Source: a virus
Lineage: Duplodnaviria > Heunggongvirae > Uroviricota > Caudoviricetes
DNA: 10,361 nt
Virus record (IMG/VR): IMGVR_UViG_2563366976_000003
Coordinates: 1-10,361 of that record
Reading direction: 5' to 3' (one strand)
In this document: positions 5,489 to 8,266 of the stretch, one piece after another
Numbering within the stretch: position 1 is the stretch's first letter
How the letters are laid out: the number at the start of each line of letters is the position of its first letter
The notes under the pieces: model-generated
Seen by the model: only the letters and a program-made list of their open reading frames with translations
Told to the model about the DNA's origin: nothing
Database searches by the model: none
Position numbers and translations under genes: made by a program

Positions 5489-5815
5489 TCAAACGATTAA
5501 ATCCTGAACTTCCCTGACTGTCTGCTCAAAACGTCCGGTCTCCAGTTCAACGCCAATCGCACGACGCCCGAGCGCCAGTGCCGCTTTTACCGTTGAACCT
5601 GAGCCCATAAAAAAATCTGCAACCAGGTCTCCCGGACGACTGCTTGCGCTGATTATCTGCTGCAGCATTTCTGCCGGTTTTTCGCACGGATGTTTCCCGG
5701 GATAGAACTGCACCGGTTTATGCGTCCAGACATCGGTATACGGCACCTGCGCTGTCACGCCAAAATACCGCCGCAGTCGGCATTCACAACCACAAGCGTG
5801 TTTAACGTACTGCAC
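5489..5815 (-). pseudogene. 3' remnant of a DNA N6-adenine/N4-cytosine methyltransferase gene; N-terminal catalytic half missing
   Basis: ORF encodes ...HPCEKPAEMLQQIISASSRPGDLVADFFMGSGSTVKAALALGRRAIGVELE..., the C-terminal HPxxKP and FxGxGS AdoMet-binding region of beta-class methyltransferases. No DPPY-type motif precedes it; the frame closes at 5815 where the AT-rich cassette begins. The track start is a GTG, not a credible native start. Confidence 0.6.
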
Positions 5816-5925
5816 AGCTTTTCAGACATAAAAAGGCCGCCTGATAGCAGCCTTTTCACATTAAAATTAAGTTTTTCTTTACTCTGTAGTATGGGAAATT
5901 AGCATTCCCTACTGGGTTTATACAA

Positions 5926-6669
5926 CTAATCTGACGTCACACGCACCATTATACTTACTAAAGAAAAGTCATCATCAGGTCCGGCTCTCTCTATACGACG
6001 CAAAATACCATTAGAAAACTTCTGACTATTACTCATAGTATTTGATGTAAATCTGGGGCGTTTTTCCCAAACGTTATGAACTCCATCAGACATGATACAC
6101 AGATGATACAACCCGTTAATACCAGGCAAATCTTTCCACGGGATAAAATCACAGTCGTATTCCATATCAACATTTGAGGCTATGGCAGTCGTTAAGATAT
6201 TTTTTCCCGGTTTATTCTTCAAATCTCTGGGTTTAAAAATATTCTGATCAATTAACATCTGATGTCTGGTATCGTCCTTCGTCAATTGATATGCTTTCTT
6301 TTCTCCAATGCAATACAAGCGACAATCACCAATATGACCAATAATAATTCCGCTATCACAAACATAACAAAAGGTAAGTGTAGTAGCAGCTTTATCGAAC
6401 TCATCATTAACTTCAGCTAACGACATAACTTTTCGCTTAACTTCAGCAAATACATTCGGAACTGCATCAAAAGATAAACTTGTCAATGCTGAAAGTTCAG
6501 CGATTGCCATGGATGAAGCATAACTGGCACCAGAGTATGAACCTACACCATCAGCTACGGCAAATAAGATGCCGTCTCCTACAATTTTTGGAGGAAGCAA
6601 TGAATCTTCGTTGACCCTACCTGGTTCTTTTGGATACGAGAATGATGAAGTCGCTATCAGCTGAGTCAT
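5926..6669 (-). CDS. PP2C-family (PPM) Ser/Thr protein phosphatase, 247 aa
   Basis: Conserved PP2C metal-binding motifs in order: NEDS, VADGVGS (DGxG), HIGDCRLY (GDSR-like), TKDDT, MSDGVHN, PDDDFSL. Strong SD AAGGAG about 7 nt before the ATG. Its ATG overlaps the kinase stop as ATGA. Confidence 0.85.
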   Translation of the reverse strand: MTQLIATSSFSYPKEPGRVNEDSLLPPKIVGDGILFAVADGVGSYSGASYASSMAIAELSALTSLSFDAVPNVFAEVKRKVMSLAEVNDEFDKAATTLTFCYVCDSGIIIGHIGDCRLYCIGEKKAYQLTKDDTRHQMLIDQNIFKPRDLKNKPGKNILTTAIASNVDMEYDCDFIPWKDLPGINGLYHLCIMSDGVHNVWEKRPRFTSNTMSNSQKFSNGILRRIERAGPDDDFSLVSIMVRVTSD

Positions 6670-7430
6670 GACTCACTCCTTAAAAAAGAATGCGCAAAAT
6701 CAAACGCCACATCATCTATTGTCTGATATCTATCATCTTTATCCATCCTTGTGCACTTAGCTATGATAGGCTTTATTTTTTTATCATCTAAATTTAAGTC
6801 TTCAATTAACCGTCCCACAGCATAAACATCAGTCTTAACTGAATACTCTGCATTATATAAAATCTCGGGAGCCATATATCTTGTACTTCCCATACGGGTA
6901 CCGATCTCGGTCAATTTAGTGGTATCCCCTTCGGGATTCGTATCTTTTACCAGACCAAAATCAGACACCTTGTATGTTCCGTCGCTAAATCGCAAAACAT
7001 TAAAGGGTTTTATATCTCTGTGTAAATAGCCTTTGGCATGGATGTAAGCTACACCATCTAATACCATTTTCACTATTGAAATTTTTTGATCTGTTGTAAG
7101 AAGGTTGTTCGTTATTTCGTGCTCAAGATCACATTCTGCTTTATCCATAATGAACCATGGATTCTCAACAAACAAATCGCACAAATAAATAGGAACAATA
7201 TTGCTATGTACGCAATGTGATTGATACACAACCTCCCTTTTAAAACGCCTTCTAAACTGCTCTATTTGCGCCAAAAGCTCTGGTTTTTCGGGTGCTAAAA
7301 CCTTTCTAGCATAATCCCCGCATTCACCTTTATTGAGGTTGTAAACCTTAACGTGTTCAACAAAGCCAAATGCCCCTCTTCCAATCAACTGAATTCGTTT
7401 TATAAAGTAATTACCGTGCTGTTCTTCCAT
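6666..7430 (-). CDS. Hanks-type (eukaryotic-like) Ser/Thr protein kinase, catalytic domain only, about 254 aa
   Basis: Starting at MEEQHGNYF: Gly-rich loop IGRGAFGFV, conserved Lys in YARKV, catalytic loop HRDIKPFN, DFG, and APE in YMAPE. No extra sensor or transmembrane domain. The track's upstream extension to 7505 is rejected. Confidence 0.85.
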   Translation of the reverse strand: MEEQHGNYFIKRIQLIGRGAFGFVEHVKVYNLNKGECGDYARKVLAPEKPELLAQIEQFRRRFKREVVYQSHCVHSNIVPIYLCDLFVENPWFIMDKAECDLEHEITNNLLTTDQKISIVKMVLDGVAYIHAKGYLHRDIKPFNVLRFSDGTYKVSDFGLVKDTNPEGDTTKLTEIGTRMGSTRYMAPEILYNAEYSVKTDVYAVGRLIEDLNLDDKKIKPIIAKCTRMDKDDRYQTIDDVAFDFAHSFLRSES

Positions 7431-7440
7431 TAAGCTCACC

Positions 7441-7460
7441 GACCTAAATTGTAACAATAT
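7441..7460 (-). promoter_or_regulatory. candidate extended -10 promoter (TGTTACAAT) for the kinase/phosphatase operon
   Basis: Minus strand carries TG-n-TACAAT about 18 nt upstream of the kinase ATG; no good -35 at proper spacing. Pattern match only. Confidence 0.3.
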
Positions 7461-7503
7461 CCATATATTACAACTACAGATAAAAAGGTCCACAGAGTTA
7501 AGC

Positions 7504-7530
7504 AAAAAACCCGCACATTTGAGCGGGTTT
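7504..7530 (-). terminator. intrinsic terminator downstream of Q; candidate tR'
   Basis: Minus strand AACCCGC / 8-nt loop / GCGGGTT followed by TTTTTTG. It lies about 50 nt after the Q stop, where the Q-dependent late terminator is expected in lambdoid phages. Confidence 0.5.
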
Positions 7531-7564
7531 ATACACTTTACAGCAATATATCACATTTACATAA

Positions 7565-7593
7565 AATATATGCTATCTAATTGACTTTTGCAA
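7565..7593 (-). promoter_or_regulatory. candidate late promoter pR' (TTGCAA, 17-bp spacer, TATATT) overlapping the 3' end of Q
   Basis: Hexamers read directly on the minus strand with 17-bp spacing, positioned between the Q stop and the terminator hairpin. Identity as pR'/qut is inference from position. Confidence 0.3.
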
Positions 7594-8266
7594 TATCTCG
7601 CTGCAAAAATGCCGCTTTTTGTTGAGATCTCCTTTTCACAGTGCAAATCAGAGATTCGGTATCGAGGTTCATAAAAATGTCGAGTATTTCACGCCAGTAG
7701 CTCACATAATTGTGGCTCCAGTTGTCAGGCTTAATCCCACACAGACGGGCAAGCTCCTGTTGCTGGTAGATATCATGTCCTATAACCCATCTCCTGACAT
7801 CCTGTGCAGCCAGCCAGATTAATTTTTTCAGGCGTTCCTGTGTCTTCCCTGCAATTTTCCTGGTACCAGAGTGAGTCTTAAATTCTGTCCATGCCCACTG
7901 CGTTATCGCGATCTGATACTCCCAGCAAGTATTTCCGCTGTAACACCACAACAACCAGGCTTTATGATGTTCTTCAAGAGACAAAACAGCCCGCCGCCAT
8001 GATGATGTAGAAAAAGCAACCTGACTGACCAGAGGAATTGACGTCCCCTTCGCCAGCGATTGTTTTCCCGGGATTGGTGGATTATCCCGCGTTATCATTT
8101 TTCCGGTCACTTCATCGCGGTACCGGATTTTTTTACGCCTGTAACGCCCTGTATCGAACATGGCATTCTCCTGCCAGGCTTCAAGCTGACCTTTTGTTGC
8201 CCCACTCAAATCAGCGGTGGCGATAATGAGCTGCTCACGCACAAACTGTAAATACTGGTTATTCAT
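7577..8266 (-). CDS. Q: putative late-gene antitermination protein Q (assigned mainly by position), about 229 aa
   Basis: ATG at 8266-8264 preceded by GGAG and overlapping the rusA stop (ATGA). The gene sits between rusA and a promoter/terminator pair, the canonical Q position. No zinc-finger motif was recognised, so family is uncertain. Confidence 0.5.
   Translation of the reverse strand: MNNQYLQFVREQLIIATADLSGATKGQLEAWQENAMFDTGRYRRKKIRYRDEVTGKMITRDNPPIPGKQSLAKGTSIPLVSQVAFSTSSWRRAVLSLEEHHKAWLLWCYSGNTCWEYQIAITQWAWTEFKTHSGTRKIAGKTQERLKKLIWLAAQDVRRWVIGHDIYQQQELARLCGIKPDNWSHNYVSYWREILDIFMNLDTESLICTVKRRSQQKAAFLQRDIAKVN

What the first reader, a model, noticed from the sequence alone, without database searches (positions are those of the whole stretch)
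5489..7600. AT-rich cassette appears inserted into a DNA methyltransferase gene
Seen in sequence: the kinase/phosphatase segment (about 5830-7500) is visibly more AT-rich than the flanking phage genes (estimated by eye, not computed). Immediately downstream, the methyltransferase ORF retains only the C-terminal HPxxKP...FxGSGS region, and its frame closes at 5815. Inference: a foreign cassette inserted or recombined here and deleted the 5' half of the methyltransferase. The upstream boundary coincides with the putative pR'/tR', so the cargo would be transcribed with the late genes.
Basis: partly seen in the sequence, partly recalled or inferred. Interest (0 to 1): 0.55.

Follow-up and report, generated by a model that had tools for sequence, protein, structure and literature searches.

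The report
Kinase-phosphatase moron beside truncated phage methyltransferase
An AT-rich two-gene kinase/phosphatase cassette sits as a clean insertion just behind the late-gene terminator of an E. coli lambdoid prophage, and the neighbouring DNA methyltransferase is a dead remnant, but a separate 1.2-kb deletion, not the cassette, truncated it; this is ordinary phage mosaicism.

Summary
Window ~5830-7503 has 37% GC against 51% elsewhere. It encodes a Hanks-type Ser/Thr kinase and a PP2C phosphatase. The ORF at 5489-5815 keeps only the last 95 of 349 residues of an M.EcoGI/GII-family adenine methyltransferase, so the catalytic DPPY motif is gone.

The causal inference does not hold.
- At least 17 complete E. 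coli genomes (IrN, E24377A) and 14 IMG/VR contigs (two more are cut short) carry the same cassette next to an intact methyltransferase.
- Against these, the window lacks exactly 1,182 bp: the 5' 763 bp of the methyltransferase, a 65-codon ORF and part of its leader.
- The deletion junction (5776/5777) lies about 53 bp outside the cassette.
- The same junction occurs without any cassette, next to a different Q gene, in phage PhiR49_2 and 63 genomes.
- An "empty site" (Q, pR', tR', then leader directly) occurs in 266 genomes. The cassette is therefore a clean insertion after the tR' T-run, ending in its own hairpin and T-run.

The upstream boundary does coincide with pR'/tR'. The cassette lies in the late operon in sense orientation. 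Its function is untested; the best guess is a toxin/antitoxin-like phosphorylation module for phage exclusion or late host takeover.

RefSeq already annotates the genes and the pseudogene. Interest is low to moderate.

The parts
7577..8266 (-). Late antiterminator Q (PF06323 type, 229 aa)
   Evidence: Pfam Phage_antiter_Q at 5.6e-84. RefSeq annotation in strain ML35.
7545..7593 (-). Putative late promoter pR': TTGCAA (7593-7588), 17 nt, TATATT (7570-7565), followed by a conserved -10-like TGATATATT (7553-7545) that could be the sigma70 pause element for Q loading
   Evidence: Consensus scan. Sequence. The -10-like element is conserved in cassette-free phage 606R7, in IrN, in L110 and in phiES15. 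The functional assignment is inferred, not tested.
7504..7530 (-). tR' intrinsic terminator: AAACCCGC / GCGGGTTT hairpin plus T-run
   Evidence: Terminator scan. Fold gives -16.5 kcal/mol, z -2.8. Conserved in cassette-free 606R7 and in the empty-site genome WGI31CT.
5830..7503 (-). Inserted AT-rich cassette (moron): 73-nt 5' leader, kinase, PP2C, 3' UTR and its own terminator-like hairpin
   Evidence: An in-silico cassette deletion matches 266 genomes as one contiguous piece. Alignment to the empty site gives the limits. GC is 37% against 51%. Present in 50 of 5,426 complete E. coli genomes.
6666..7430 (-). Hanks-type Ser/Thr protein kinase, 254 aa; all canonical motifs are present (GRGAFG, K in YARKVL, HRDIKPFN, DFG, APE)
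   Evidence: Pkinase at 2e-33. phrog_2361 at 8.5e-98. PADLOC mad6 at 6e-40 and PD-T4-6 at 1e-34, over the kinase domain only. Motifs were read from the translation.
5926..6669 (-). PP2C-family phosphatase, 247 aa; its start overlaps the kinase stop by 4 bp (ATGA); metal-binding motifs are present (ADGVGS, GDCR, SDGV, DDD)
   Evidence: PP2C_2 at 3.9e-14. phrog_5650 at 2e-64. ORF coordinates and translation.
5830..5856 (-). Terminator-like hairpin plus T-run at the 3' end of the cassette
   Evidence: Fold gives -21.7 kcal/mol, z -5.6, with no shuffle of 200 folding as well. In the empty-site alignment it sits where tR' abuts the leader.
5777..5829 (-). Remnant of the backbone leader that normally precedes the 65-codon ORF and the methyltransferase
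   Evidence: Homologous to IrN, Stx2a_1447, phiP27 and WGI31CT upstream of the 65-aa ORF.
5776..5777 (.). Junction (plus or minus 2 nt) of a 1,182-bp deletion relative to IrN-type phages; only 2-3 nt of microhomology
   Evidence: Window 5153-5775 aligns to L003 2854-3476 and window 5778-10013 to L003 4659-8898. Junction alignment. Microhomology inspection.
5489..5776 (-). 3' remnant (last 95 codons plus stop) of an M.EcoGI/GII-family beta-class N6-adenine DNA methyltransferase; a pseudogene
   Evidence: RefSeq pseudogene flag. Family statement from PMC5778455.
5190..5439 (-). Phage tRNA cluster (Ile/Met-CAT, Arg-TCG, Arg-TCT), downstream backbone
   Evidence: ARAGORN. Rfam.

Best explanation
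The window is the late-regulatory region of a stx-negative lambdoid prophage of E. coli, with all genes on the minus strand. The order is DUF968, RusA, Q, pR'-tR', [kinase, PP2C], methyltransferase remnant, three tRNAs, two STnc100 sRNAs, NanS-p esterase, then the lysis genes. Two independent events shaped 5489-7600.

Event 1 (shown). A ~1.67-kb AT-rich two-gene cassette was inserted exactly between the T-run of the Q-dependent terminator tR' and the leader of the downstream late genes. The cassette ends in its own hairpin and T-run.

Event 2 (shown). A separate 1,182-bp illegitimate deletion removed part of the leader, a conserved 65-codon ORF and the first 254 codons of an M.EcoGII-family non-specific adenine methyltransferase. 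The remnant lacks the catalytic DPPY motif. This deletion allele arose once and has been moved by homologous recombination into phages with and without the cassette.

How the cassette works (inferred).
- It lies in sense orientation behind pR'-tR'. It is therefore transcribed when Q makes RNA polymerase terminator-resistant, as stx is in Stx phages. Some tR' read-through or a weak internal promoter may also act in lysogens.
- The two genes overlap by 4 bp, which suggests translational coupling.
- By analogy with the KKP module, the pair most likely forms a kinase (toxin/effector) and phosphatase (antidote) module. A shift in their balance during infection or induction would phosphorylate host or phage proteins, either to exclude competing phages or to reprogram the host late in the lytic cycle.

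Consequence of losing the methyltransferase (inferred). Progeny DNA of this phage no longer receives the broad adenine methylation that would shield it from restriction.

The confidence given (0.85) is for the structural account, meaning the two independent events and their boundaries. My confidence in the specific kinase/phosphatase function is much lower, about 0.3-0.4.
For: Insertion.
- The synthetic cassette-less junction matches 266 complete genomes collinearly, 365-368 bp in one piece.
- The WGI31CT alignment shows one hairpin followed by TTTTTTTATG and the leader. The window instead has hairpin, TTTTTTG, cassette, a second hairpin, TTTTTATG and the leader.
- Cassette-free phage 606R7 shares Q, pR' and tR', and diverges right after the T-run.
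- GC and GC3 discontinuity.
- The cassette is in only 50 of 5,426 genomes.

Mobility of the pair.
- It lies directly after Q in Cronobacter phage phiES15 and in IMG/VR L110.
- It lies after the lysis genes in Escherichia phage Flotzy, which keeps an intact methyltransferase after Q.
- It is always in late-gene orientation with the 4-bp overlap.

Deletion.
- Exact 1,182-bp gap against IrN.
- Intact module beside the cassette in at least 17 genomes and 14 IMG/VR loci, with two more cut short.
- Identical junction in PhiR49_2 and 63 genomes without the cassette.
- The shared haplotype next to the junction then switches to a Stx2a_1447-like haplotype, which shows recombination.
- The remnant is 100% identical to aa 255-349 of an intact O104:H4 allele.
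- DPPY is lost and no start codon is conserved.

Slot. phiP27 carries a PD-Lambda-1 homologue (2e-89) at the same position after Q.

Analogy. KKP is a prophage kinase/PP2C toxin-antitoxin defence (PMC11341870).
Against: - No expression or phenotype data exist for the cassette.
- The consensus scan found no convincing sigma70 promoter between tR' and the kinase start. The TGTTACAAT extended -10-like motif there is not conserved in L110. Expression in lysogens is therefore uncertain, which weakens the prophage-defence reading.
- The PP2C has no significant PADLOC hit (best 0.0035). The kinase's PADLOC hits cover only the generic kinase domain.
- The hairpin at the cassette's 3' end aligns positionally with tR' of other phages. 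It could be diverged backbone rather than cargo, and L110 does not share it.
- pR' and the pause element are assigned from consensus and conservation only.
Confidence: 0.85

Rival explanations
1. One reading: a single event, in which insertion or recombination of the foreign cassette itself removed the 5' part of the methyltransferase.
For: In the window the cassette and the truncated gene are only ~53 bp apart. All 30 complete genomes with the >=99% cassette allele carry the deletion.
Against: The cassette lies next to an intact methyltransferase and 65-aa ORF in at least 17 genomes and 14 IMG/VR loci, with two more cut short. The same junction occurs without the cassette in PhiR49_2 and 63 genomes. 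Backbone leader sequence separates the cassette end from the junction.
Confidence: 0.05
2. The short methyltransferase-like ORF is a genuine, selected small gene (for example an AdoMet-binding or regulatory protein) rather than a pseudogene.
For: The same remnant persists in about 93 complete genomes in two contexts. dN/dS between the two deletion alleles is 0.05. The frame is open.
Against: The low dN/dS is explained by a recombination switch to haplotypes of intact genes. In the ~130 bp next to the junction there are only 2 differences, one synonymous and one not. The start codon is not conserved, giving 108 aa against 92 aa, and the N-terminal 13 residues derive from non-coding leader. The catalytic motif IV and the target recognition domain are absent. 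RefSeq flags it as a pseudogene.
Confidence: 0.07
3. The cassette is a lysogen-expressed anti-phage defence moron with its own promoter and terminator (as with 933W Stk, PD-T4-6 or KKP), and its position in the late operon is incidental.
For: It ends in a strong hairpin and T-run. The same slot holds a PD-Lambda-1 homologue in phiP27. The kinase hits the PD-T4-6, mad6 and Stk2 profiles. A TGTTACAAT extended -10-like motif lies 17 nt upstream of the ATG. KKP is a precedent.
Against: The scan found no sigma70 consensus promoter. The extended -10 TG is not conserved in L110. The pair is always co-oriented with the late genes in four different backbones, including between Rz and terminase in Flotzy. 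The PP2C has no defence-family hit.
Confidence: 0.35
4. The compositional step reflects gene-specific amino-acid or codon bias or an assembly chimera, not horizontal acquisition.
For: None beyond the prior possibility.
Against: The sequence is identical in 30 independent complete genomes. An empty site occurs in 266 genomes. GC3 drops by about 20-30 points. The closest non-E. coli kinase relatives are in Ferrimonas and Vibrio, at 50% and 43% identity.
Confidence: 0.01

Closest known systems
Phage 'morons' in lambdoid late operons (for example stxAB downstream of Q/pR'/tR' in Stx phages; lambda bor and lom)
   Same: A discrete extra transcription-unit-sized insert between conserved backbone genes. 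Its base composition differs from the backbone and it ends in a terminator. It sits at the Q/tR'-proximal slot where Stx phages and relatives carry variable cargo.
   Different: No autonomous promoter has been demonstrated. The cargo is a kinase/phosphatase pair rather than a toxin or an outer-membrane protein.
KKP (PfpC-PfkA-PfkB) kinase-kinase-phosphatase module of Pf and other prophages (PMC11341870)
   Same: A prophage-borne Hanks-type Ser/Thr kinase together with a PF13672 PP2C phosphatase. There the kinases act as toxin and the phosphatase as antitoxin, and the module gives anti-phage defence.
   Different: KKP is three genes in the order PP2C, kinase, kinase, and the kinases are fused to CSD and FHA domains. 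Here there are two genes in the order kinase, PP2C. The kinase is a bare 254-aa domain and the module lies in a lambdoid late operon.
PD-T4-6, Stk2 and mad6 kinases in PADLOC
   Same: The kinase domain scores 1e-34 against PD-T4-6, 6e-40 against mad6 and 1e-27 against Stk2.
   Different: The matches cover only the catalytic domain (for example profile positions 11-201 of 327). Those are single-kinase systems or parts of larger systems without a PP2C partner. 933W Stk was not found by tblastn at E<=1e-5.
M.EcoGII / M.EcoGI non-specific N6-adenine DNA methyltransferases of E. coli O104:H4 prophages (PMC5778455)
   Same: The remnant's 95 homologous residues are 100% identical to the C-terminus of a 349-aa O104:H4 prophage methyltransferase in the same Q, 65-aa ORF, methyltransferase, tRNA context. 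The paper describes a 349-aa beta-class enzyme (DPPY, TRD, FxGxG) with a close relative in phage 1720a-02, which also matched the window.
   Different: Only the FxGxG/AdoMet part survives here. DPPY and the TRD are deleted, so the remnant cannot be an active enzyme. I did not have the M.EcoGII sequence itself to compare.
Kinase-PP2C pairs of Cronobacter phage phiES15 (gp21/gp22) and Escherichia phage Flotzy (CDS0008/0009)
   Same: The same two-gene order with a 4-bp overlap, 40-45% amino-acid identity, and late-operon orientation. In phiES15 the pair lies directly after a Q-like gene.
   Different: The sequences are divergent. In Flotzy the pair sits between Rz and terminase, and the methyltransferase after Q is intact.

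Membership tests
Beta-class N6/N4 DNA methyltransferase (PF01555; M.EcoGI/GII family) | N-terminal catalytic motif IV (DPPY) | tested here: not met
   TDPPYF lies at residues 34-39 of the intact alleles. The window ORF aligns only from residue 254/255 onward.
Beta-class N6/N4 DNA methyltransferase (PF01555; M.EcoGI/GII family) | Central target-recognition domain | tested here: not met
   The Pfam match covers profile positions 134-219 of 221 only. Residues 1-254 of the 349-aa protein are deleted.
Beta-class N6/N4 DNA methyltransferase (PF01555; M.EcoGI/GII family) | C-terminal AdoMet-binding motif I (FxGxG) | tested here: met
   FFMGSGST is present, and the remnant is 100% identical to an intact allele over 95 aa. 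It is therefore a remnant of the family, not a functional member.
Phage moron | Present in some and absent from otherwise collinear related phages, with precise boundaries between backbone genes | tested here: met
   Empty site in 266 genomes. The insert is bounded by the tR' T-run and the leader ATG.
Phage moron | Base composition distinct from the surrounding genome | tested here: met
   37.4% against 51.0% GC; GC3 31-33% against 50-64%.
Phage moron | Own promoter and terminator allowing expression from the repressed prophage | tested here: inconclusive
   A terminator-like hairpin is present at the 3' end. No consensus promoter was found and the candidate extended -10 is not conserved. Expression itself cannot be tested with these tools.
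KKP kinase-kinase-phosphatase module | Three genes in the order PP2C, kinase, kinase | tested here: not met
   Two genes in the order kinase, PP2C.
KKP kinase-kinase-phosphatase module | Kinases fused to CSD (PfkA) and FHA (PfkB) domains | tested here: not met
   Pfam finds only Pkinase / PK_Tyr_Ser-Thr on the 254-aa (279-aa ORF) protein.
KKP kinase-kinase-phosphatase module | Kinase toxicity neutralised by the phosphatase; anti-phage phenotype | not testable with these tools
   Requires expression and plaque assays.
PD-T4-6 (single-gene Ser/Thr kinase defence) | Full-length match to a PD-T4-6 profile as a stand-alone gene | tested here: not met
   The best match covers profile positions 11-201 of 327, which is the kinase domain only. 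The gene is translationally coupled to a PP2C.
Hanks-type Ser/Thr protein kinase | G-loop, VAIK Lys, HRD, DFG and APE motifs | tested here: met
   GRGAFG, YARKVL, HRDIKPFN, SDFGL and YMAPE were read from the translation. Pkinase at 2e-33.
PP2C (PPM) phosphatase | Metal-coordinating Asp motifs (DGxG, GD(S/C)R, SDG, C-terminal DD) | tested here: met
   ADGVGS, GDCR, SDGV and DDDFS were read from the translation. PP2C_2 at 3.9e-14.

The most novel reading that the evidence does not exclude
The translationally coupled kinase-PP2C pair is an uncharacterised two-component phosphorylation switch that lambdoid phages place under Q antitermination. It would be expressed with the late genes to phosphorylate host or rival-phage proteins, for example for superinfection exclusion during the lytic cycle or for control of lysis or host shut-off. 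That would make it a late-operon counterpart of T7 gp0.7 and of the KKP toxin-antitoxin defence. The slot behind tR' would then be a general defence/counter-defence hotspot, given the PD-Lambda-1 homologue there in phiP27.
Probability: 0.3. Interest if true: 0.5.

Novelty: new member of a known kind. Interest (0 to 1): 0.3.

Why it matters
For the scan, this case shows that closeness of a foreign cassette to a truncated gene does not mean one caused the other. Population comparison separated the two events cleanly.

Biologically it gives three things.
- A precisely mapped cargo slot directly behind tR' in Q(PF06323)-type lambdoid phages. This is the position that drives Shiga toxin expression in relatives.
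- A rare kinase/PP2C cargo, present in about 1% of complete E. coli genomes, including EAEC 55989, ETEC E24377A and APEC BEN2908. Its function is untested and could be assayed easily.
- A circulating null allele of an M.EcoGII-type promiscuous adenine methyltransferase, which probably alters how well progeny phage evade restriction.

None of this overturns current understanding.

Tried and rejected
- Megablast of 5300-8300 against the phage collection found no phage with the whole region; only the Q and methyltransferase/tRNA parts matched. The informative relatives came from complete E. coli genomes.
- I first read dN/dS = 0.05 between the two deletion alleles as possible selection on the remnant. 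I rejected this after the site-by-site alignment showed a recombination switch to intact-gene haplotypes.
- I looked for repeats that could explain the deletion. Only a GTGAATA motif 8-9 nt upstream on both sides and 2-3 nt of microhomology at the junction turned up, which is not convincing.
- I looked for a cassette promoter. There was no consensus hit, and the TGTTACAAT candidate is not conserved in L110.
- The first cassette limits from BLAST end-points (5842-7495) were refined to ~5830-7503 with the empty-site alignment.
- ETEC H10407 was checked as a possible empty site, but it has a different antiterminator (DUF1133), so it is not informative for the boundaries.
- tblastn found no similarity to 933W Stk at E<=1e-5.
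- The species-representative genome scan gave only distant kinase relatives (Ferrimonas 50%, Vibrio 43%, then Desulfobacterales at about 30%). No donor could be named.
- Rfam found no family for the pR'-tR' RNA.
- A literature search found no paper on this specific cassette.
- One protein alignment failed because the coordinates were out of frame, and it was repeated.

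
Full report
**Context.**
All genes in the window lie on the minus strand and form the late-regulatory and lysis region of a lambdoid prophage.
- The order is: DUF968 protein (8635-9681), RusA (8263-8622), antiterminator Q of the PF06323 type (7577-8266), Ser/Thr kinase (6666-7430), PP2C phosphatase (5926-6669), a short methyltransferase-like ORF (5489-5815), three tRNAs (5190-5439), a ~1-kb gene-free stretch, NanS-p-type esterase (2361-4214), holin, YdfR and lysozyme.
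- The 5300-8300 stretch is 100% identical to E. coli ML35, VR50, BEN2908 and others, and 99.1% identical to EAEC 55989. ML35 matches window positions 1-10218 at 99.96%.
- RefSeq already annotates the kinase and the phosphatase, and marks 5489-5776 as a methyltransferase pseudogene 'missing N-terminus'.
- The layout is that of Stx phages, but without stx.

**Checking the observation.**
- The compositional step is real. The cassette as first mapped (5842-7495) is 37.4% GC against 51.0% for the rest of the window.
- No 1,654-bp window outside the cassette falls below 48.2% GC.
- GC3 is 31% (PP2C) and 33% (kinase), against 50-64% for the flanking genes.
- The short ORF matches only positions 134-219 of the 221-position N6_N4_Mtase profile.
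- Aligned with full-length relatives of 349-352 aa, it starts at residue 254/255. It keeps GKHPCEKP and FFMGSGST (motif I) and lacks TDPPYF (motif IV, residues 34-39) and the central domain.
- Its residues 14-108 are 100% identical to residues 255-349 of a 349-aa prophage methyltransferase of E. coli O104:H4 that sits in the same context of Q, 65-aa ORF, methyltransferase and tRNAs.
- The literature describes M.EcoGI/GII of O104:H4 as 349-aa beta-class (DPPY, TRD, FxGxG) non-specific adenine methyltransferases on prophages, with a close relative in phage 1720a-02 (PMC5778455). Phage 1720a-02 also matched the window's remnant.

**Mapping the deletion.**
- E. coli IrN carries Q, kinase, PP2C, a 65-aa ORF, a full 349-aa methyltransferase and the tRNAs.
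- Window 5153-5775 aligns to IrN locus positions 2854-3476, and window 5778-10013 to 4659-8898.
- The window therefore lacks exactly 1,182 bp. The missing stretch is the first 763 bp of the methyltransferase, the intergenic spacer, the 65-codon ORF and about 70 bp of its leader.
- The junction reads GAATGCCGAC|TGCGGCGG at 5777/5776, with only 2-3 nt of microhomology.

**Mapping the cassette.**
- Backbone homology between IrN and the cassette-free phages Stx2a_1447 and phiP27 runs from the tRNAs through the methyltransferase, the 65-aa ORF and its leader. It stops about 84 bp downstream of the PP2C stop codon.
- On the other side, phage 606R7 has the same Q and no cassette. It shares the Q stop, the promoter-like hexamers, a -10-like TGATAT(A/T)TT element and the terminator hairpin, and diverges just after the T-run.
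- I deleted the cassette in silico from IrN and searched with the 368-bp product. 266 complete genomes match it as a single collinear piece of 365-368 bp.
- In one of these genomes (WGI31CT: Q, 65-aa ORF, methyltransferase), the alignment shows one hairpin followed by TTTTTTTATGCCTGAAAA.
- The window instead has the tR' hairpin, TTTTTTG, about 1.67 kb of cassette, a second hairpin, then TTTTTATGTCTGAAAAG.
- The cassette is therefore a clean insertion at ~5830-7503, ending in its own hairpin and T-run (-21.7 kcal/mol, z -5.6).

**The two events are independent.**
- Cassette with an intact methyltransferase module: IrN, E24377A and at least 15 other complete genomes. In IMG/VR, 16 contigs carry the IrN-type cassette allele; 14 of them span the whole module and two end inside it.
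- Cassette with the deletion: 30 complete genomes, all carrying the >=99% cassette allele, and 5 IMG/VR contigs.
- Deletion without the cassette: phage PhiR49_2 and 63 complete genomes, where the junction follows directly on a PF06530-type Q and its own terminator.
- Neither: about 2,450 genomes with the intact module.
- The window and PhiR49_2 share the junction and its immediate haplotype, for example GTGAATGCCGAC and the Phe codon in VQFYPG.
- They differ at only 2 sites over the next ~130 bp. After that, PhiR49_2 switches to a Stx2a_1447-like haplotype.
- That recombination switch explains the low pairwise dN/dS of 0.05 without any selection on the remnant.
- The remnant has no conserved start. 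It begins at GTG 5815 in the window (108 aa, with the first 13 codons from leader) and at an internal GTG in PhiR49_2 (92 aa).
- I conclude that the deletion arose once and has been shuffled among phages. It was not caused by the cassette.

**The cassette's genes.**
- The kinase has every Hanks motif: GRGAFG, the Lys in YARKVL, HRDIKPFN, DFG and APE.
- The PP2C has the metal-binding Asp motifs: ADGVGS, GDCR, SDGV and DDD (Pfam).
- The PP2C start overlaps the kinase stop by 4 bp.
- The same gene order and overlap recur at 40-45% amino-acid identity in two annotated phages. In Cronobacter phage phiES15 the pair lies directly after Q. In Escherichia phage Flotzy it lies between Rz and terminase, and the methyltransferase after Q is intact.
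- At 83% nucleotide identity the pair recurs in IMG/VR contig L110, between a PF06323 Q and a holin.
- The pair is always co-oriented with the late genes.
- The PADLOC hits of the kinase (mad6, PD-T4-6, Stk2) cover only the catalytic domain, and the PP2C has no significant defence hit.
- 933W Stk is not detectably similar.
- The closest characterised analogue is KKP, a prophage PP2C-kinase-kinase toxin-antitoxin defence (PMC11341870). KKP differs in gene number, gene order and accessory domains.
- In phiP27 the same post-Q slot holds a PD-Lambda-1 homologue at 2e-89, which suggests the slot collects defence-type cargo.

**Mechanism: what is shown and what is inferred.**
- Shown: the position, orientation and boundaries of the cassette; the intactness of its catalytic motifs; the loss of the methyltransferase catalytic part.
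- Inferred, pR'/tR': pR' (TTGCAA, 17 nt, TATATT at 7593-7565) would start a short RNA that ends at tR' (7530-7507) unless Q is present. The conserved TGATATATT (7553-7545) may be the sigma70-dependent pause site where Q loads, by analogy with lambda pR'; this analogy rests on my own knowledge.
- Inferred, expression: the cassette would be read with the late genes, as stx is in relatives.
- Unsettled: whether the cassette is also expressed in lysogens. No consensus promoter was found, and the extended -10-like TGTTACAAT is not conserved in L110.
- Working model: the pair is a kinase effector held in check by a co-translated phosphatase, and it acts in phage exclusion or late host takeover. My confidence in that specific function is modest.

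**Verdict.**
The causal link between insertion and truncation is wrong.
- This is typical lambdoid mosaicism, already reflected in RefSeq annotation.
- The untested kinase/PP2C cargo is the only moderately interesting element.

Noticed in passing
window 4437-4646 and 4924-5114 (- strand): Two copies of the sRNA family STnc100 (RF02076; 165 and 136 bits) lie in the ~1-kb gene-free gap between the tRNAs and nanS-p. Stx phages carry stxAB in this interval. The two copies are ~70% identical to each other, and one matches the post-stx2B region of Stx2a_1447 at 87%.
   Followed up: partly
window 4215-5189: There are no stx genes. The prophage is a stx-negative relative with the same architecture as Stx phages: Q, methyltransferase, ileZ-argN-argO, a gap where stx would be, then nanS-p and the lysis genes.
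   Followed up: partly
L005 (phage phiP27) 4771-6000, the slot between Q and the 65-aa ORF: phiP27 ORF L22 (409 aa; T5orf172/MUG113 domain) matches the PADLOC defence family PD-Lambda-1 at 2e-89. It occupies the same post-Q slot as the kinase cassette. Stx2a_1447 carries two unknown opposite-strand ORFs there.
   Followed up: partly
window 7545-7553 (- strand): The -10-like element TGATAT(A/T)TT lies between the promoter-like hexamers and tR'. It is conserved in the window, IrN, 606R7, L110 and phiES15, even though the surrounding sequence is divergent. It is a candidate sigma70 pause / Q-loading element.
   Followed up: partly
L003 4390-4587 (absent from the window): A 65-aa ORF (WP_000917767) always precedes the methyltransferase in Stx-type and related phages. 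It has no Pfam or PADLOC hit, and the same 1,182-bp deletion removes it.
   Followed up: partly
window 7448-7474 (- strand): An imperfect palindrome, TTGTAATATATGGATATTGTTACAA, lies just upstream of the kinase start and contains TGTTACAAT (extended -10-like). It could be an operator or a weak promoter. It is only partly conserved in L110.
   Followed up: partly
window 5364-5439: ARAGORN calls this tRNA Met (CAT), whereas RefSeq and Stx-phage records annotate it as tRNA-Ile (ileZ), presumably because the CAT anticodon would be lysidine-modified.
   Followed up: no
window 7500-7800 and 5778-5925 compared with IrN-type loci: The cassette genes are 95-97% identical between the window-type and IrN-type phages. 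The flanks are only 84-85% identical (Q 3' end with pR'/tR', and the cassette 3' UTR with the leader). This suggests the cassette has moved between diverged backbones by recombination.
   Followed up: no
window 10219-10361: The match to strain ML35 (99.96% over 1-10218) stops 143 bp before the window end, which indicates another mosaic boundary there.
   Followed up: no
phrog_5650 (565-position profile): The PP2C matches positions 273-520 of a 565-position PHROG profile. Some phage homologues may therefore be longer, and the N-terminal part could be a fused kinase.
   Followed up: no
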